A DNA stretch of 64,000 bases from a virus, in the IMG/VR virus record IMGVR_UViG_3300021171_000008, positions 14,423 to 78,422 of that record; one strand, 5' to 3'. Position numbers and translations under genes: made by a program. Shown piece by piece: positions 7,689 through 48,356 of the stretch. Under the pieces are notes generated by a model. That model was not told the DNA's origin. It searched no databases and saw only the letters and a program-made list of their open reading frames with translations. Positions within the stretch are counted from its first letter, which is position 1. Every line of letters starts with the position of its first letter.

Positions 7689-7996
7689 TGCTCGCCCAGC
7701 TTCCGCCGACGGCCTCCACAAAGATTGTCGATTACCCAGGAGTGGTTGCGTGCATTGGCATCGCCACCGTCACTGCGGGGCTTTTGTGGGTCATCAATCG
7801 ATACGATGCGACGGGCGGCACGCTGACCATCTCACTGATTGTGGTGCTGGCGTTTGTCGCGGTCGTCGCGTTCTCTTTGCTCTACAATATCCCTTCAGAC
7901 GATGAGGTGACGCCGGGAGTTGTTGGCGGCCTCGTCGCCGCGTTCGGCGCGGTCGTCGCGTTCTGGCTGGGGAGATCAAGGGAAGGTCCGAAATGA
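7685..7996 (+). CDS. Putative holin (3 TM segments)
   Basis: Three hydrophobic segments, overlaps the endolysin stop. Confidence 0.55.
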   Translation: MMLAQLPPTASTKIVDYPGVVACIGIATVTAGLLWVINRYDATGGTLTISLIVVLAFVAVVAFSLLYNIPSDDEVTPGVVGGLVAAFGAVVAFWLGRSREGPK

Positions 7997-8181
7997 GTCC
8001 GCTCGGAATCATCCTCCTCATCGTCCTGATCGTCATCTTGTTTGGAGGGATCAGCCCGCACTTCTATCAGGGCGCGCCTTGGGGACCGGGCTACGGCTGG
8101 GGCAACGGCGGGATCGGCCTCATCGGCATCCTCCTGATCGTCCTCCTCCTGCTGCTGGTCTCGGGGCACTTCCCGTACTAA
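7993..8181 (+). CDS. Small membrane protein, DUF3309-like
   Basis: Two hydrophobic helices flanking a Gly/Trp/Tyr loop (GGISPHFYQGAPWGPGYGWGNGG). Confidence 0.65.
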   Translation: MSPLGIILLIVLIVILFGGISPHFYQGAPWGPGYGWGNGGIGLIGILLIVLLLLLVSGHFPY

Positions 8182-8385
8182 AGGGGAGGCCGCACTTCCG
8201 TAGGAGGTAAATCTAGGAGAAGGCGGCCTCCCAAGTCGCCCCCCGCAAGGGCGGTGCAAGGGGGGCTGACATGGCTAGGTTGTGGGACCCAGCCAATTCC
8301 ACGCCTATAGCGCGGTCCACGGGGATTTGCACGTTCTGTTTTGCACCCCGTGCTAGGGATAACTACCTAGCGCGGGGGAAGTTCC

Positions 8386-8634
8386 TCACCGCTGGCCGCT
8401 CCAGCCATCTTCGATCCACGGGGCGTCTTCTTGCCGTCGCTGCGAGTGCTTGGCCCACGGCGGCTCCTCGGGAACCTTGGCCCGGTCTTGCCGTTGCAAC
8501 TCTTTGATATTCGCGCGCAGCGTTGCGATGGCTTGTCTGGCTTCGTCCAGACCGGGCTCCCCGGCTTTCTCCAAGCGGGCAAAATCAGCCTCGCAGATAT
8601 CAAGGATCTTCCAGTACGGCTCTAGGTCCAGCAT
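8386..8634 (-). CDS. Hypothetical protein
   Basis: GGAGTCGA RBS before ATG 8634. Confidence 0.55.
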   Translation of the reverse strand: MLDLEPYWKILDICEADFARLEKAGEPGLDEARQAIATLRANIKELQRQDRAKVPEEPPWAKHSQRRQEDAPWIEDGWSGQR

Positions 8635-8652
8635 ATTCGACTCCGTTGACTG

Positions 8653-9000
8653 TCACGACAGCGCGATCAGCTGATCGGCGATGGCGTAGGCCGTGTCCGT
8701 GTCCTTCGTCGACCAGTCCGTGACCGGGTTCTGGCCGCGCCGCACGATCGCCAGCGAGACAGCGAGGATGGCGTCGCGCCGCGCCTCGGAGCGCTTGATC
8801 GCGTTGCCGTTAGCGGCGGCGGCGATGCCGAGATCCACATCGCCATGGATCTCCTTGTCGGACGGCGGGATGGAGCCGAGCATGCGCTTGAACGCAGGGG
8901 CTTCGCGCAGCGGCGCGCTCGCTGGAATGCCGACGCCAGGGCGAATGGCTTCGTGATCAGCAAGAGAAGATGTGGTGGCTTGGTAGGCGTCGTCACTCAT
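8653..9000 (-). CDS. Hypothetical protein
   Basis: Translationally coupled leftward operon. Confidence 0.5.
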   Translation of the reverse strand: MSDDAYQATTSSLADHEAIRPGVGIPASAPLREAPAFKRMLGSIPPSDKEIHGDVDLGIAAAANGNAIKRSEARRDAILAVSLAIVRRGQNPVTDWSTKDTDTAYAIADQLIALS

Positions 9001-28970: not shown

Positions 28971-28989
28971 GGTCTTCGACTCCGTTGGT

Positions 28990-29045
28990 AGGCTCATCAG
29001 TGGCGGCCAAACCGCCAGACGCGCGCCAGAGCGCGCGTTTCGCCT
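28990..29045 (-). ncRNA. Type II hammerhead ribozyme 2
   Basis: Minus strand: AGGC-GAAA-CGCGCGC(TCTG)GCGCGCG-TC-TGGCGG(TTTGG)CCGCCA-CTGATGA-GCCT; 3' CCAA can pair with loop I TTGG. Confidence 0.93.
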
Positions 29046-32277: not shown

Positions 32278-33811
32278 TTTGGTGAATTTTGTTGAGGAGG
32301 CGTGGCCGATTTTGGAGCCCCGGATGGTGTTTGTGAAGGGGCCTTTGGTCGAGGCGATCTGCGAGCATTTGGAAGCGGTTTCGGCGGGGCTGATTACGCG
32401 GCTGTTGATCAATGTTCCGCCTGGGTCGGCGAAGTCGCTTTTGGTCAGTGTGCTTTGGCCGAGCTGGGAATGGGGCCCTCGGGGTCTGACGTCGTATCGG
32501 TACATCAGCTCCAGTTTTGCGGAGAGCGCGTGCGTTCGGGACGTTCGCAAGATGCGGATGTTGGTGACCAGCGACTGGTATCAGCGTCACTGGCCGCATG
32601 TTGAGTTGACGCGCGGTGGGGAGCTGTCGTTTGAAAATTCGATGACGGGGACGCGGGACGGGGTTGCGTTCTCCAGTCTGACTAGCCGGCGCGGTGACAG
32701 ATTGATTCTGGATGACCCGCACAGTGTGGAGAAGGCGGAGAGCCCGAACGATCGGGAGAAGGCGACGCGGCGGTTTCGGGAGAGCGCGGTGAACCGTCTG
32801 AACGATCAGGCGCGCTCGGCGATCGTTGTGGTGATGCAGCGGCTGCACGAGGCGGACATCAGCGGGGTGATCATGGAGTACATGCCCGATTATTGTTTGT
32901 TGGTTTTGCCGATGGAGTACGAATCGTCGCGGCATTGCGAAACGAGCATTGGATTTAGCGACTGGCGGCGCAGCGAGGGGGAGCTTTTGTTTCCGGCGCG
33001 GTGGGGCCGGCAGGAGGTTGAGAACCTCAAGCGGGACATGGACAAATTTGCGTGGGCTGGCCAGTACCAGCAGCGGCCGGCGCCGCGAGGCGGGGGGCTG
33101 TTTCCGTATGGCGGCTGGGAATATTGGCATCGCGGGATTGCGCTGACGTTCGGCAGGAACGAATCGCAATATCCGGACATGGACGTGATCCTGGGCTCGC
33201 TGGACCCGGCTTACGGCGAGAAGCAGGAAGCCGATTTTTCGGCCTTCATCGTGCTCGGGCTCTGGACGAACCATCGCGGGGTGCAACAGGCGATGTTGAT
33301 GGCTTGCTGGCAGAAGCGGCTGGCGTTGAACGATCTGGTCGAGGAGGTGATCAAATCGTGCAGAAAATTGAAGGTCGATCGGCTCTTAATCGAGCTGAAA
33401 GCGTCAGGGATCTCGGTCGCGCAGGAGATTTCGCGGCTGACGCGGGACGAGGAATTTGCGGTCCAGCGGATCGATCCGGGTAATATGGACAAGGTTTCGC
33501 GCGCGAACGCGCTGTCGCATTTGTGGGGCGAGGAGCAGGCGGATGGCAGTGTGCGCAAGGGCGTCATCTGGTGCCCAGCTCAGACGCAGAGTAACGGGGC
33601 GGTTTGGCCTCGGGATTGGGCCGAGCTGTGCATGAGCCAGTGCGCGAGCTTCCCGAAAGGGAAATTCGACGACATCGTTGACGCCTTGTGTCAGGCGCTG
33701 AAGTGGTGCCGCGATCGGGGCTTGCTGAAGAAGTCGACCGAGGTCCAGGCGGAGGAATACGCGGAGCTGATGGCGTCGCCGCTTCCCCCGCAGCCGCTGT
33801 ACCCGATTTGA
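32153..33811 (+). CDS. terL: Terminase large subunit
   Basis: LLINVPPGSAKS Walker A, GDRLILDDPH Walker B, VVMQRLHE.D, GQYQQRPAP, nuclease FPKGKFDDIVDA. Confidence 0.95.
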   Translation: MPRSNLPSHEAVVAELMKRELGISSMEASASVSTVRERCRNSLVNFVEEAWPILEPRMVFVKGPLVEAICEHLEAVSAGLITRLLINVPPGSAKSLLVSVLWPSWEWGPRGLTSYRYISSSFAESACVRDVRKMRMLVTSDWYQRHWPHVELTRGGELSFENSMTGTRDGVAFSSLTSRRGDRLILDDPHSVEKAESPNDREKATRRFRESAVNRLNDQARSAIVVVMQRLHEADISGVIMEYMPDYCLLVLPMEYESSRHCETSIGFSDWRRSEGELLFPARWGRQEVENLKRDMDKFAWAGQYQQRPAPRGGGLFPYGGWEYWHRGIALTFGRNESQYPDMDVILGSLDPAYGEKQEADFSAFIVLGLWTNHRGVQQAMLMACWQKRLALNDLVEEVIKSCRKLKVDRLLIELKASGISVAQEISRLTRDEEFAVQRIDPGNMDKVSRANALSHLWGEEQADGSVRKGVIWCPAQTQSNGAVWPRDWAELCMSQCASFPKGKFDDIVDALCQALKWCRDRGLLKKSTEVQAEEYAELMASPLPPQPLYPI

Positions 33812-35189: not shown

Positions 35190-35861
35190 ATGGGCATCTG
35201 GGCGTTGATCGTGATGTGGTGGCGGGCGCGGCAGCGGGACGTCGACATGGAGATCCTGTGGCCGATCTGCCTGCGGGAGGCGGGCGATCTCGACCGGGCG
35301 AAAGCAGCATTTGCATTTCATGCTATGAACGACCCCGCGTGGTTGTGCCTGGGCGAGGAGCGGTTGCTCGCCTTCATCGACCGCCTGGAGGCCTATGACT
35401 GATGCCGACGAGCCGCCGTCTCTATGGAAACGCGGTTGATCAGATTGCCGATCGACTGACGGAGTCGCGCAAGCTCCTGCTTGAGGCGTTCAAAGCGATG
35501 GTGGATGAGCGCCCTGGCGAGGCGCAGACGTTGCTCGAACAGGCTGAGATGACGATTAGCGGCGCGGCGACGTTGGCCAAGTGGGCGACGACGCTCGTGA
35601 AGGAGGCGCGATGAGGATCGCGATTGTGCTTTTGGCCAATGCGCTCGTTTGGACGGCGCTTTGGCAGCTGGCGTCAGCGATGGCGCAATTCCGATGACCT
35701 CGCCAGCGCGGCAGCGGTTGTTGGACTTGGCGCAGAAGCTGGAGGATAGAGTTCCTCTGACGCCGAAGGAAAAGGCCTTTCTCGTGAGCGCCCTGTTAGC
35801 GATCAGCTTGGGCGTGGACGCCAATGAGGCGCTGTGGCTTAAGGACCGCAAGCCCAGGTAG
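35190..35861 (+). CDS. Small hypothetical genes (35190-35402, 35402-35614, 35694-35861)
   Basis: Coupled ORFs. Confidence 0.45.
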
Positions 35862-35928
35862 CTCAGTTCGGTAGAGCGCTGCGTTGAAGGCGCAGGCGTC
35901 GGAGGTTCGATTCCTTCCTTGGGCACCA
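35852..35928 (+). tRNA. tRNA-Phe (GAA) with encoded CCA
   Basis: Acceptor GCCCAGG/CTTGGGC, D-arm GCTC/GAGC, anticodon arm CTGCG-TTGAAGG-CGCAG, T-arm GGAGG-TTCGATT-CCTTC, ACCA end. Confidence 0.9.
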
Positions 35929-36788: not shown

Positions 36789-36873
36789 ATTTCTGGGCCT
36801 TGACGTTTCGCAGATCGTGCAAATATGGGCGAAACCACGGCCTACCGTTGGCTATTACAGCAAAGGAGTCGAA

Positions 36874-37689
36874 ATGAAGTCCCCGAGGGTGACGGCTAAG
36901 AAAGAATCCGTCGAAATCAAACCGATTGAGATGCGCAAATTCGTCGTCCATCTGGTCGGCGAGAATCTTCTCATGCACCGCTTCGCGCAAAAAGCGTGGC
37001 AAGAACTGCTTTTGCCCGCCTCGAAAGGGAAGGCGGCCGAAGGCGCGCCGCTCAAGCATGATCCTCTGAGCGAGTTTCGCGATTCGCTCTATCGCTGCCG
37101 CGACGTCCAGGCGCCAACCCTGTTTCACTTGCCGAACGGCATCGTGAGCAAGGCCATGGCGGCGGCGGCGCTCGACATGGGCGGGGCGTTCAAGACACAA
37201 ATCCAGCGGCTGACCATGGTTCTGACGCCGACGCTGCATTTGTACGGCGTGCCGGAGCTGCGCATGGACATGGTGCGCAACTCCGATATGGCCAGGACGC
37301 CGGATGTGCGGACGCGGCCGATCTTTAAGCGCTGGGCGCTCCCCAATGTGGTGATCCAGTACAAGGTCGCGCCGCTCAACGACAGCCAGATGCTGAATCT
37401 GCTCGCGGGCGCCGGCCAGATCGTCGGTTTCGGTGATGGTCGCCAGCAAAAGGGCGGTGGCCCGGAGGGCGGCCCGTTCGGCTGCTTCCGCATCGTCAGC
37501 GATCACAATGATCCGGAGCTGAAGGAGATCATGGCGACCGGCGGGCGGGCCGCACAGCAGGCCGCGTGGACCGATCCGGAGATGTTCGACGAGAACACCG
37601 CCGAATTGATGGACTGGTTCAACGTTGAGATCGATCGCCGCCACAAGCCTCGTCGGGGCGATGGCGCCGCCGTGCAAGTGGGAGCTTGA
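36874..37689 (+). CDS. Stand-alone Cas7/RAMP-like RNA-binding protein (effector for the GGY-NN guide array)
   Basis: N-terminal beta-strand V.L.G..LLMH, central P....KAM..AA, RTRP.F..W, and C-terminal Gly-rich loop AG..VGFGDGR..KGGG...GPFG.F typical of RAMP folds; no other cas genes in the window. Confidence 0.75.
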   Translation: MKSPRVTAKKESVEIKPIEMRKFVVHLVGENLLMHRFAQKAWQELLLPASKGKAAEGAPLKHDPLSEFRDSLYRCRDVQAPTLFHLPNGIVSKAMAAAALDMGGAFKTQIQRLTMVLTPTLHLYGVPELRMDMVRNSDMARTPDVRTRPIFKRWALPNVVIQYKVAPLNDSQMLNLLAGAGQIVGFGDGRQQKGGGPEGGPFGCFRIVSDHNDPELKEIMATGGRAAQQAAWTDPEMFDENTAELMDWFNVEIDRRHKPRRGDGAAVQVGA

Positions 37690-37690
37690 A

Positions 37691-38182
37691 ATGGAGCAAG
37701 AACGACGAGAGCTTTTGTGGCAGGCGTTGGTCGCCAGCGCTGTTGACGGTCTCATCACGGCCGATAGCGTGGTCGAAGCCGCGAAGGACCCCGCGAACGT
37801 CCTGCACGGCGAGTTCGAGTGGCGGGACGATGTCGCCGCTCACCGATACAGGCTGCAACAGGCGCGGCAGCTGATCCGGATCTATTCCCCGCGAGTGGAT
37901 TACATCTCGATCAAGGACGAGGCGCCGGTCGAGCGCGACATCGTCTACTTGCACGATCCGCGCGTCGGCCCGCGTGTCCAGGCCTACGTGTCGTCGGCCA
38001 CTCTCGCGGACGATGGCGACGCTTCGCTCACGGCGGTCTTGCTCGAACTCAGGTCCGTCAGCGCGGCGGTGACGCGGCTCGCGCGCGTCGCTCATGCTCT
38101 GGGAGTCGAGTGCCCGACTGGGGATCTGGAGGCCGCCGTCCAGGCGTTGGCTGAGCGTCTCCAGGGGCGGAATGCAGCGTAA
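37691..38182 (+). CDS. Partner protein of the RAMP-like gene
   Basis: VVEAAKDP..VLHGEFEW.D..AA..YRL.QARQLIR motif; lies between the effector gene and the array. Confidence 0.65.
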   Translation: MEQERRELLWQALVASAVDGLITADSVVEAAKDPANVLHGEFEWRDDVAAHRYRLQQARQLIRIYSPRVDYISIKDEAPVERDIVYLHDPRVGPRVQAYVSSATLADDGDASLTAVLLELRSVSAAVTRLARVAHALGVECPTGDLEAAVQALAERLQGRNAA

Positions 38183-38192
38183 GTGCGTATCA

Positions 38193-38462
38193 GGCAAGGC
38201 AGGCACGGTTAGGTGGGGCCGGGTAAGGCGAGGCAGGGTCAGGTTAGGTCCGGTGAGGCAGAGCAAGGCAGGCGCGGCTGGGCTGGGCAAGCCTTGGGCG
38301 GCATGGCTGGGCGCGCTTTGGTATGGCTCGGCAGGGCTCGGCAGGCACGGCGTGGCAAGGCGCGGCGAGGCTTGTCAAGGCATGGCTGGGCTAGGCGAGG
38401 CAGGCGAGGCAAGGCGAGGCTCGGTCTGGTGCGGCCGGGTCAGGCGAGGCAGGCCATGGCAC
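38193..38462 (+). ncRNA. GGY-NN pentamer guide array A (~50 pentamers; 4 units separated by 4-nt GGCA)
   Basis: Units 38202-38266 (13 pentamers), 38271-38339 (13 + one irregular 4-mer), 38344-38398 (11), 38403-38462 (12); GGC/GGT constant, NN variable. Confidence 0.85.
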
Positions 38463-38467
38463 GGGGG

Positions 38468-38493
38468 AGGGGGCGGCTTCGGCCGCCCCCTTT
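38468..38493. terminator. Hairpin/terminator closing array A (probably bidirectional)
   Basis: AGGGGGCGGC-TTCG-GCCGCCCCCT-TT between the convergent array and recombinase gene. Confidence 0.8.
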
Positions 38494-39144
38494 CTATTTG
38501 TCGACCATCCTCGACACGACCGATCGCGTGAACGGGCGGCCGGACGAGCTGACAAAGCCCTGGTTCGCCAGCGCTGCGCGCACCGCGTTGAGCGATGCGC
38601 CTGCCTGACGCAGCTGCTTTGCGATCTTGGTCATCTTCGGGTCCATTTCGGCCCAGGATTTTCTGCCCTCGCACTTGCCGGTCGTGGCCTTCTTGCGGTC
38701 GCGCGCCGCCTTGAGCTTGGCGACCGTCAATGCCCGGTCGAACTCAGCGACCGCGCCCAGGATCTGCCGGACCAGGGACGCCGTCGGCGTGTCCTCGACG
38801 AAGCTCCCAGGCGAATCGACGGCGACCAACTCGACGCCGAGATCTTGAAGCATCTTCCAGCCGGTTTCCTGCACCATGAGATCGCGGGCGAAGCGGTTGG
38901 CGGTCTCGACGAGGATCGTTCTCACGCCATTCCCGGCGATCCGCTGGAGCATGAGGCCGAAGCCCTCCCGCTGGGTGACCGGATCGGCGCCGGAGACGGC
39001 GGCGTCGTAATATTCGGCGACGATCGAGATATCGTTTCGCTCGGCGAACTGGCGGACGGCCCGCTCTTGGCGGCCGAGGCTGTCCTTGTCGACGCCGACG
39101 TTGGTGGCGGACGAGGTTCGGAAGTAGGCGACGGCTTTTTTCAC
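38494..39144 (-). CDS. Small serine recombinase (resolvase family)
   Basis: AVAYFRTSS catalytic motif, SL.RQ, DAAVSG, R.GF, LVETANRFARD, QILGAVAEFDR. Confidence 0.92.
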   Translation of the reverse strand: MKKAVAYFRTSSATNVGVDKDSLGRQERAVRQFAERNDISIVAEYYDAAVSGADPVTQREGFGLMLQRIAGNGVRTILVETANRFARDLMVQETGWKMLQDLGVELVAVDSPGSFVEDTPTASLVRQILGAVAEFDRALTVAKLKAARDRKKATTGKCEGRKSWAEMDPKMTKIAKQLRQAGASLNAVRAALANQGFVSSSGRPFTRSVVSRMVDK

Positions 39145-48030: not shown

Positions 48031-48213
48031 CTATTTCCGCGCCGTTGGGTCTTTCGGCAACGCGGCGATCAAGCGTTGGTGGCGCTCATATTCGGCGAGG
48101 CCGACGGCGAGGTCGGGGTGCTTTCCGGCATGGATGCTTTGCATCTTGGAGGCAAACCGAACCGGGCCATTGGTCTTGCCATGTTTGTCGATGTCCTGCG
48201 TAAGCGTGCTCAT
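48031..48213 (-). CDS. 60-aa hypothetical protein downstream of guide B
   Basis: GGAGAGTCGAATG start. Confidence 0.5.
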   Translation of the reverse strand: MSTLTQDIDKHGKTNGPVRFASKMQSIHAGKHPDLAVGLAEYERHQRLIAALPKDPTARK

Positions 48214-48236
48214 TCGACTCTCCTATTTGCATGACT

Positions 48237-48356
48237 GGGGCGGGACCCACGGCCCCGCCCCCTGCCTGCCTCGCCGCGCCTTGCCTTGCGCCGCCCTGCC
48301 ACGCCTCGCCAAGCCTTGCCTTGACAGGCCTTGCCTCGCCTCGGTGCATTTGCACC
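48237..48356 (-). ncRNA. Stand-alone GGY-NN guide B (14 pentamers at 48271-48340) with 5' and 3' hairpins
   Basis: Minus strand: GGTGCAAATGCACC-GA-[GGCGA GGCAA GGCCT GTCAA GGCAA GGCTT GGCGA GGCGT GGCAG GGCGG CGCAA GGCAA GGCGC GGCGA]-GGCA GGCA-G-GGGGCGGGGCCGTGGGTCCCGCCCC. Confidence 0.85.

What the first reader, a model, noticed from the sequence alone, without database searches (positions are those of the whole stretch)
38403..39090. Guide unit A4 decodes to the adjacent serine recombinase
Seen: unit 4 NN = GA AA GA TC CT GC CG CA GA AG AT AC, and the first 10 spell D-K-D-S-L-A-R-Q-E-R. The convergent recombinase gene at 39090-39061 reads GAC AAG GAC AGC CTC GGC CGC CAA GAG CGG = DKDSLGRQER. 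Seven of 10 are identical; the mismatches are Ser AGC vs TCN, Arg CGG vs AGN (both synonymous) and G/A. On its own this is statistically weaker (~0.05 genome-wide). However it is in frame, sense-strand, in the neighbouring gene, and shows the same mismatch signature as the other two guides.
Basis: partly seen in the sequence, partly recalled or inferred. Interest (0 to 1): 0.8.

Follow-up and report, generated by a model that had tools for sequence, protein, structure and literature searches.

The report
VIPR guide RNA against sibling-phage recombinases
Unit A4 is a guide RNA of a phage VIPR system (a CRISPR-related, RNA-guided DNA silencer first described in 2026): read two bases on and one off, it spells codons 19-28 of the serine recombinase gene exactly as VIPR-less sibling phages carry it, while the phage's own neighbouring copy differs at 3 of the 10 positions read, so this is a good new example of a known kind.

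Summary
Unit A4 (38403-38462) is a run of GGY-NN pentamers, and its first 10 NN match codon positions 1-2 of the recombinase at 39090-39061 in 7 of 10 cases. Alone this is weak: 41 of 300 shuffled guides do as well somewhere in the 78-kb genome.

Homologous recombinase alleles match better: 10/10 in four sibling phage contigs, 9/10 in three others. The exact 10-NN pattern occurs only 4 times in IMG/VR and never in the 185,579 GTDB species genomes searched. All four hits are in frame at the same codons.

The array belongs to a VIPR system, known from bioRxiv preprints of 2026:
- a Vipr RAMP protein (36874-37689; profile hit to the solved SUSP1 Vipr, E=2.4e-7; Csm3/Cas7 fold);
- an accessory gene (37691-38182);
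- a staggered array of guide RNAs (vrRNAs).

The published "1-nt skip" rule explains the decoding. Other guides hit the siblings' terminase and two other genes, and the capsid gene of another phage family.

The Ser/Arg codon-box "signature" is ordinary divergence between homologues. It is not a special self-avoidance code.

This scan has noted the same pattern in other genomes, with guides lying beside mismatched own alleles. Verdict: a new member of a known kind.

The parts
36874..37689 (+). vipr gene: 271-aa minimal RAMP (Cas7-like) protein
   Evidence: ATG with AAAGGAG ribosome-binding site after a terminator hairpin. A profile of 42 homologues hits PDB 36pp_D 'SUSP1 Vipr protein' at E=2.4e-7 over the G-loop region. 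The AF2 model has pLDDT 83.7. The Foldseek top hits are all Csm3/Cas7 subunits, prob ~1.0. 59 of 80 homologue loci carry GGYNN arrays, and all 188 arrays lie on the vipr strand.
37691..38182 (+). accessory gene (vap-like), 163 aa, start overlapping the vipr stop
   Evidence: GC3 frame plot supports the + frame. It matches PHROG 15946 (unknown function) and has no Pfam family. Its position between vipr and the array is that of published vap genes. Homology to vap1-6 was not tested.
38190..38462 (+). staggered vrRNA array A: runs of GGY-NN pentamers cut by 4-nt GGCA units (A1 38202-38270, A2 38271-38343, A3 38344-38402, A4 38403-38462)
   Evidence: Pentamer parse. There is no codon-phase GC3 signal across it. 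The architecture matches 'staggered arrays' with 1-nt overlap (preprint fig. S18).
38403..38452 (+). guide A4 core: 10 NN = GA AA GA TC CT GC CG CA GA AG
   Evidence: 10/10 match to sibling recombinase alleles and 7/10 to self. The exact pattern has only 4 hits in IMG/VR and none in GTDB genomes.
38453..38462 (+). two terminal repeat units (GCC-AT, GGC-AC) that do not pair with any allele
   Evidence: The last two NN of A1, A3 and B are likewise unmatched in their targets.
38469..38499 (.). GC-rich hairpin plus U-tract: terminator closing the vipr-vap-array operon, shared with the convergent recombinase gene
   Evidence: RNA fold -38.2 kcal/mol, z = -3.8, 0 of 200 shuffles fold as well. The simple terminator scan did not list it.
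38494..39144 (-). small serine recombinase (216 aa), convergent with the array
   Evidence: Pfam PF00239 Resolvase E=1e-25; PHROG integrase/DNA invertase.
39061..39090 (-). own near-target: codons 19-28 (DKDSLGRQER), 7/10 NN match to A4
33146..33178 (+). own near-target of guide A1 in the terminase large subunit (8/11; sibling G003 11/11)
   Evidence: (shuffle p ~1/300).
48262..48345 (-). dispersed vrRNA B, part of a ~110-bp insertion with its 3' hairpin (about 48236-48261), absent from relatives
   Evidence: relatives L005-L012 lack it; TTTGCA/TGCA duplicated at the junctions; siblings have no arrays.
48478..48513 (+). own near-target of guide B in gene 48445-49335 (10/12; sibling G002 12/12)
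   Evidence: (0 of 300 shuffles).

Best explanation
Window 36874-38499 is a VIPR operon: vipr, an accessory gene, a staggered array of guide RNAs (vrRNAs) and a terminator. It sits in a ~78-kb soil phage whose nearest cellular gene relatives are in Bradyrhizobium.

By analogy with the published SUSP1 and P. fulva systems, one Vipr protomer binds each GGY and presents the two following bases. These pair with double-stranded DNA while every third target base is skipped. That is why targets line up with codon positions 1-2.

Guide A4 (10 NN) is aimed at codons 19-28 of the serine recombinase gene of closely related, VIPR-less sibling phages. Binding there, 54 nt into the gene, would block its transcription.

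The phage's own recombinase is a diverged homologue that matches only 7/10. It is probably spared.

Shown here:
- the anatomy of the locus;
- the family membership of the protein;
- the perfect and exclusive match to sibling alleles.

Inferred, not shown:
- expression and processing of A4;
- binding and silencing;
- that three mismatches are enough for immunity.
For: (1) Sibling alleles. 10/10 in IMG/VR contigs 3300021406_000012, 3300044977_000034, 3300028906_000003 and 3300043787_000071; 9/10 in L134, L135 and L140; 7/10 in self, L136, L137 and L142.

(2) Exclusivity. The exact 10-NN pattern has only those 4 hits in 2.9 million viral contigs and 0 in the GTDB species genomes searched. All are in frame as DKDSLARQES, with wobble bases varying (GAC/GAT, TCA/TCG, GCT/GCC) while the read bases are fixed. 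Shuffled guides never exceeded 7/10 in 300 trials on the own genome.

(3) The four target contigs have no Vipr homologue; three of them are 91-100% complete. The three fully fetched (G001-G003) have no GGYNN array.

(4) The protein is a Vipr. Arrays co-occur with its homologues on the same strand in 59 of 80 loci.

(5) Other guides behave the same way:
- A1 against the terminase: self 8/11, sibling 11/11.
- B: self 10/12, sibling 12/12.
- C: self 8/11, siblings 10/11.
- A3: 9/9 in 80 IMG/VR loci (81 listed by the scan), in frame in a major head protein gene of another phage family.

(6) Published mechanism and a precedent. The 1-nt skip rule has been shown in vitro and in vivo, and SUSP1 vrRNA4 silences a satellite's serine recombinase next to its catalytic serine (bioRxiv 10.64898/2026.04.26.720920.720927, 2026.10.15.759431).

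(7) Co-occurrence in soil. Independent soil metagenomes hold the A4 guide unchanged. The same runs hold sibling recombinase alleles carrying the Gly-to-Ala change (39074 C>G) that matches the guide.
Against: There is no RNA evidence for this locus, so the vrRNA ends are inferred from the GGCA punctuation only.

The preprints give no mismatch-tolerance curve. That 7/10 escapes silencing is therefore an assumption.

The published criterion (>=80% NN) is met by guide B on its own genome if only its 12-unit core is counted (10/12). 'Self is spared' is thus not safe for every guide.

The Vipr-to-SUSP1 sequence link covers only ~50 residues.

The accessory gene has no recognised domain.

The role of the recombinase in the sibling phages' life cycle is unknown, so the benefit of silencing it is conjecture.
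Confidence: 0.85

Rival explanations
1. Weapon kept beside its antidote. The guide is aimed at siblings, as above. In addition, its position next to the phage's own mismatched allele is selected, so that recombination between co-infecting siblings cannot separate the guide from the resistant allele. This extends the best explanation rather than replacing it.
For: Three of the four guides that have a self-homologue lie 135-690 bp from it: A4 to the recombinase, B to gene 48445, C to gene 7854-8768 of the genome. A1 lies 5 kb away.

My own arithmetic, not a tool result: taking 2d/L as the chance of each distance in a 78.4-kb genome and combining by Fisher's method gives p of about 1e-4.

B and C are small insertions (~110 and ~180 bp) that are absent from all relatives at exactly those places.

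Earlier notes of this scan report the same layout in other phages. These are leads, not independent proof.
Against: Self alleles are no more diverged at the target sites than elsewhere in the genes, so no directed recoding is visible.

A4 lies in the main array, whose place beside the recombinase may simply reflect a variable region between tRNA-Phe and the recombinase.

With only four guides the statistic is fragile.

The three VIPR preprints do not mention such linkage.
Confidence: 0.35
2. Autoregulation. A4 acts on the phage's own adjacent recombinase through partial (7/10) pairing, for example to damp its expression.
For: The best genome-wide self hit of A4 is in frame in the adjacent gene, near its 5' end. 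VIPR represses transcription from either strand.
Against: 70% is below the 80% threshold at which the authors found natural targets, and above which no scrambled guide matched.

Perturbing NN pairing abolished silencing in the reporter assays.

Perfect 10/10 targets exist in siblings, which explains the sequence of the guide better. The preprint found no self hits >=80% in its sets.
Confidence: 0.08
3. Chance resemblance. The pentamer tract is a low-complexity repeat or a mis-called coding region with no relation to the recombinase.
For: The self match alone has a shuffle p of about 0.14 genome-wide. Similar tracts are annotated as a hypothetical protein in Mycobacterium phages, for example Donkeykong gp48. 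Donkeykong's guides show no self-decoding.
Against: 10/10 matches to four sibling alleles, with no other exact match in IMG/VR or the GTDB genomes. Four other guides have significant targets. No codon-phase signal crosses the array. The link to Vipr homologues is strict in strand and position.
Confidence: 0.02

Closest known systems
VIPR systems (Vipr RAMP + vap + vrRNA). The experimental exemplars are type II of Escherichia phage SUSP1 and a Pseudomonas fulva prophage (bioRxiv 10.64898/2026.04.26.720920 and 10.64898/2026.04.26.720927)
   Same: A phage-borne minimal RAMP gene is followed by a small accessory gene and same-strand GGY/NN repeat RNAs of 10-15 units. Targets follow the 1-nt skip rule aligned to codon wobble. 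Targets lie in rival mobile elements. The self match is below 80% for A4.
   Different: The Vipr here is 271 aa (SUSP1: 202 aa) and shares only a ~50-residue recognisable stretch. The guides are not separated by a conserved pseudoknot tail; they abut through 4-nt GGCA units. The likely host is an alphaproteobacterium from soil. The targets are core genes of sibling phages rather than a satellite or resident prophage regulators.
Staggered vrRNA arrays (fig. S18 of 10.64898/2026.04.26.720920)
   Same: Consecutive vrRNAs share a boundary with a one-base offset. Here each run ends in GGCA followed directly by GGC, shifting the phase by one.
   Different: Only the figure legend was available, so the VIPR type of the published example and its processing sites could not be compared. 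Here the last two repeats of each unit never pair with targets (A1, A3, A4, B). I did not find this rule stated in the preprints.
SUSP1 vrRNA4 targeting the F5 satellite serine recombinase (bioRxiv 10.64898/2026.10.15.759431)
   Same: A guide is aimed in frame at the N-terminal catalytic-domain codons of a serine recombinase of a competitor. Wobble positions are skipped.
   Different: There the target is a parasite satellite and silencing blocks its excision, which was shown experimentally. Here the targets are full-size sibling phages, the role of the recombinase is unknown, and nothing was tested experimentally.
Class 1 CRISPR backbone subunits (Csm3/Cas7) with crRNA
   Same: RRM-type RAMP fold. 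Foldseek top hits are Csm3 of type III-A complexes. One protomer binds per repeat segment of the guide.
   Different: There is no CRISPR array, no spacer acquisition genes and no other cas genes. Pairing is 2 of 5 guide bases to 2 of 3 target bases, instead of 5 of 6.

Membership tests
VIPR system | A Vipr protein: minimal RAMP with RRM core, G-loop and thumb | tested here: met
   The profile of 42 homologues hits PDB 36pp_D 'SUSP1 Vipr protein' at E=2.4e-7, and the next hit has E=0.5. The AF2 model (pLDDT 83.7) gives Csm3/Cas7 as all top Foldseek hits.
VIPR system | vrRNAs of 9-16 tandem GGY/NN pentamers with conserved GGY and variable NN | tested here: met
   A1 has 13, A3 11, A4 12, B 14 and C 15 units. 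GGY is kept in most units and NN is variable.
VIPR system | Arrays encoded next to vipr, on the same strand, usually after an accessory (vap) gene | tested here: met
   Here the order is vipr, a 163-aa gene, the array, then a terminator. 59 of 80 IMG/VR loci with homologues have arrays, and 188 of 188 arrays lie on the vipr strand. None was found in 18 control loci.
VIPR system | Targets obey the 1-nt skip rule (NNx), mostly aligned to codon wobble | tested here: met
   A4 10/10, A1 11/11, B 12/12 and A3 9/9 (80 loci), all in frame in protein genes.
VIPR system | Natural targets (>=80% NN) lie in competing mobile elements and not in the own genome | tested here: met
   For A4 the siblings score 100% and self 70%. 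Caveat: guide B reaches 10/12 on self if only its core is counted.
VIPR system | Accessory protein belongs to one of the vap1-6 families | not tested
   No Pfam family, and PHROG 15946 has unknown function.
VIPR system | Conserved structured 3' tail on each vrRNA | tested here: inconclusive
   Internal units end only in (R)A-GGC-A. The terminal units of A, B and C are followed by GC-rich hairpins. This is consistent with the staggered variant, but the tails of that variant are not described in the text available.
VIPR system | vrRNA is expressed, bound by Vipr, and silences matching DNA | not testable with these tools
   No RNA run holds the locus. This needs sRNA-seq, pull-down and reporter assays.
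Small serine recombinase (resolvase/invertase, PF00239) | N-terminal resolvase catalytic domain | tested here: met
   PF00239 E=1e-25 over residues 4-153; PHROG 95 and 125.

The most novel reading that the evidence does not exclude
In this phage, guides lie beside the phage's own mismatched copies of the genes they attack in siblings (A4 beside the recombinase, B beside gene 48445, C beside gene 7854-8768). B and C are tiny promoter-guide-hairpin cassettes inserted at exactly those places. This would make each a linked 'weapon plus resistant allele' unit that behaves like a selfish allele-exclusion or drive element among recombining sibling phages. The VIPR preprints do not describe such a layer.
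Probability: 0.3. Interest if true: 0.6.

Novelty: new member of a known kind. Interest (0 to 1): 0.35.

Why it matters
The case confirms, on an uncultured soil phage far from the E. coli and Pseudomonas models, that the noncontiguous VIPR code can be read directly from sequence and that it predicts targets. One guide picks out four sibling genomes among 2.9 million viral contigs.

It shows VIPR being used between near-identical phages against core genes: recombinase, terminase and two genes of unknown function. A capsid gene of another phage family is also targeted.

It offers three testable details:
- the last two repeats of each staggered unit do not pair;
- a three-codon difference may be enough for self-immunity;
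- guides tend to lie beside the resistant allele.

It also shows that such arrays are mis-annotated as hypothetical proteins in deposited Mycobacterium phage genomes.

Tried and rejected
Ideas held before the literature was found, all superseded by the VIPR evidence:
- a coding pentapeptide repeat, rejected because there is no codon-phase GC3 signal and TAG codons occur in several frames;
- a TRAP-like ring-protein binding RNA;
- a two-tetrad G-quadruplex;
- a Rho-loading C-rich antisense strand;
- an iteron or centromere array for a ribbon-helix-helix protein.

Searches that gave nothing useful:
- Rfam gathering search: no family on the arrays.
- Donkeykong (NC_051648.1) self-decoding: nothing above shuffles.
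- hhalign of the Vipr profile against Donkeykong gp46 and gp47: no support, so that phage's Vipr was not identified.
- Exact A4 pattern in GTDB genomes: 0 hits.
- Bradyrhizobium and other cellular resolvases (<=54% identity): at most 6/10, at unrelated sites.
- Guides A2 and A3 have no target in the three sibling genomes. A2 is irregular and was not pursued.
- Single-protein scan for close Vipr relatives in IMG/VR found only 36-37% homologues.
- The simple terminator scan did not list the 38469-38499 hairpin; folding did.
- No RNA holder is listed for the locus.
- The first two literature searches missed the preprints.

The test for excess divergence of self alleles at target sites was negative.

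The contigs of the 75-93% identical Vipr proteins P0003-P0006 could therefore not be examined for covariation between guide and allele.

Full report
WHAT IS THERE

Between the stop of a + strand gene (38182) and a strong hairpin (38469-38499; -38.2 kcal/mol, z = -3.8) lies a 270-bp tract of degenerate GGY-NN pentamers. Four-nucleotide GGCA units reset its phase at 38198, 38267, 38340 and 38399.

The convergent gene 38494-39144 (-) is a small serine recombinase (PF00239, E=1e-25). Its codons 19-28 (39090-39061) are those quoted, and they match the first ten NN of A4 in 7 of 10 cases.

IS IT MORE THAN CHANCE?

I scanned every position of the whole record (78,422 bp; the window is 14423-78422), on both strands. 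The recombinase site is the single best hit for A4. However, 41 of 300 shuffles of the same dinucleotides reach 7/10 somewhere, so taken alone the match is weak.

- A1 against the terminase large subunit: 8/11, reached by 1 of 300 shuffles.
- The array at 48262-48345 against gene 48445: 10/12, reached by 0 of 300.
- A third array outside the window (genome 8819-8900) against gene 7854-8768: 8/10, reached by 3 of 300.

WHAT KIND OF THING IT IS

blastn of the array hit 27 Mycobacterium phages with the same architecture. An eight-unit GGCNN pattern hit more than 120 IMG/VR contigs. A literature search then found three 2026 bioRxiv preprints on VIPR systems. They describe:
- a minimal RAMP protein, Vipr, that polymerises on vrRNAs made of 9-16 GGY/NN repeats;
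- NN bases that pair with double-stranded DNA while every third target base is skipped;
- natural targets that are mostly coding, aligned to codon wobble, and located in rival phages and satellites;
- array variants that include 'staggered' arrays with one-base overlaps.

THE LOCUS FITS

The gene 36874-37689 encodes a 271-aa protein. A profile of its homologues matches the solved SUSP1 Vipr (PDB 36pp_D) at E=2.4e-7, and the next hit has E=0.5. Its AlphaFold model (pLDDT 83.7) finds Csm3/Cas7 subunits as all top Foldseek hits.

In 59 of 80 IMG/VR loci that encode a homologue there are GGYNN arrays. All 188 of them lie on the strand of the gene, and most lie downstream after room for one small gene. 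Here that gene is 37691-38182 (163 aa, no known domain).

THE DECISIVE TEST FOR A4

Nine relatives of the recombinase were fetched from IMG/VR. At the homologous codons the guide scores as follows:
- 10/10 in two (L138, L139);
- 9/10 in three (L134, L135, L140);
- 7/10 in three (L136, L137, L142);
- L141 lacks the N-terminus and was not scored.

The exact 10-NN pattern occurs only four times in IMG/VR and not once in the GTDB species genomes searched. All four hits are in frame as DKDSLARQES in recombinase genes of 46-78-kb sibling contigs. Wobble bases vary among them while the read bases are fixed.

None of the four contigs has a Vipr homologue, and three of them are 91-100% complete. The three that I fetched in full (G001-G003) have no GGYNN array at all. 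More distant cellular resolvases (Bradyrhizobium, 54% identity) are not matched.

So the guide is specific for the recombinase of sibling phages, and the phage's own copy is a near-miss.

THE OTHER GUIDES

- A1: 11/11 on a sibling terminase gene, against 8/11 on self.
- B: 12/12 on a sibling, against 10/12 on self.
- C: 10/11 on siblings, against 8/11 on self.
- A3: its nine-NN core has 81 exact hits listed in IMG/VR. The 80 I parsed are all in frame (TVNAEFN[MI]C) in a ~340-aa major head protein gene of a different phage family, with contigs mostly 30-43 kb. Several come from the same metagenomes as the siblings.

In A1, A3, A4 and B the last two repeats never match the target. They probably belong to a 3' handle.

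A VIPR-positive relative (L137) carries a different guide set. Its first guide matches this phage's terminase gene 9/10, so the conflict looks reciprocal.

WHAT IS NOT SUPPORTED

The 'split-codon' signature is not special. Between self and siblings 19-27% of recombinase codons differ at positions 1-2, against 3 of 10 in the site. Synonymous Ser/Arg/Leu box swaps are frequent across these genes. The mismatches are what ordinary divergence between homologues gives.

SETTING

The vipr cassette lies in a region between tRNA-Phe and the recombinase that differs in every sibling. Arrays B and C are insertions of ~110 and ~180 bp that the relatives lack.

The locus is present, with A4 unchanged, in soil metagenomes of several studies. 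The same runs hold sibling recombinase alleles with the Gly-to-Ala change that the guide matches. This also argues that the sequence is natural.

OPEN POINT

Three of the four guides that have a self-homologue lie within 700 bp of it. By my own arithmetic the combined chance of those distances is about 1e-4. This suggests that guides are kept linked to resistant alleles.

Earlier notes of this scan describe the same layout in other phages. The preprints do not mention it. I rate it as possible, not shown.

VERDICT

The feature is a new member of the recently described VIPR kind. Expression, processing, binding and the mismatch threshold remain untested.

Noticed in passing
window 38344-38402 (guide A3); loci L250-L329: The nine-NN core of guide A3 has 81 exact hits listed in IMG/VR. 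The 80 parsed are all in frame (TVNAEFN[MI]C) in a ~340-aa major head protein gene (PHROG 9953) of a different phage family (contigs mostly 30-43 kb), partly from the same metagenomes as the sibling phages.
   Followed up: partly
window 48236-48345 (-): Array B with its 3' hairpin is a ~110-bp insertion in the 5' leader of a 60-aa gene (48031-48213). It is absent from five relatives, and TTTGCA/TGCA is repeated at the two junctions. It may be a mobile mini-cassette.
   Followed up: partly
L001 8767-8955 (genome coordinates, outside the window): The third array (C, minus strand, 8819-8900), with a promoter-like motif and a terminator hairpin, replaces ~13 bp in siblings G001 and G002. Its guide matches the adjacent gene 7854-8768: 8/11 on self and 10/11 on siblings.
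   Followed up: partly
window 36810-36830; 48346-48365 (-); L001 8925-8945 (-): A shared motif GCAG(T/A)T(C/G)GTGCAAAT stands just upstream of vipr and of arrays B and C. It also occurs in relatives without arrays. It is probably a phage promoter, leader or operator element that the guide cassettes use.
   Followed up: no
window 28984-29045 (-): Rfam type II hammerhead ribozyme (39.3 bits, gathering 37) in an intergenic gap between two minus-strand genes. No GGYNN repeats are nearby, so it is not one of the published ribozyme-vrRNA arrays.
   Followed up: partly
L002 2430-2780 = NC_051648.1 36889-37234: Mycobacterium phage Donkeykong, and 26 other Mycobacterium phage records hit by the same blastn (Quico, Florinda and others), carry a ~350-bp GGCNN array with GGCA punctuation in the early lytic operon. 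Where a feature is annotated it is a hypothetical protein (Donkeykong gp48). Its guides do not match its own genome, and its Vipr gene was not identified.
   Followed up: partly
L137 2850-3100 (-): A sibling contig (IMGVR_UViG_3300044982_000150) has a homologous cassette with the same terminator but other guides. Many of its repeats have degenerate GGY (AGC, GTC, TGC). Its first guide matches this phage's terminase gene 9/10 (window 32357).
   Followed up: partly
window 38453-38462 and the 3' ends of A1, A3 and B: The last two repeats of each staggered unit never pair with the inferred targets. They look like a conserved handle of the form (R)A-GGC-A.
   Followed up: partly
window 35852-35928: tRNA-Phe (GAA) lies just upstream of the variable region that holds the VIPR cassette. 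The content between it and the recombinase differs in every sibling.
   Followed up: partly
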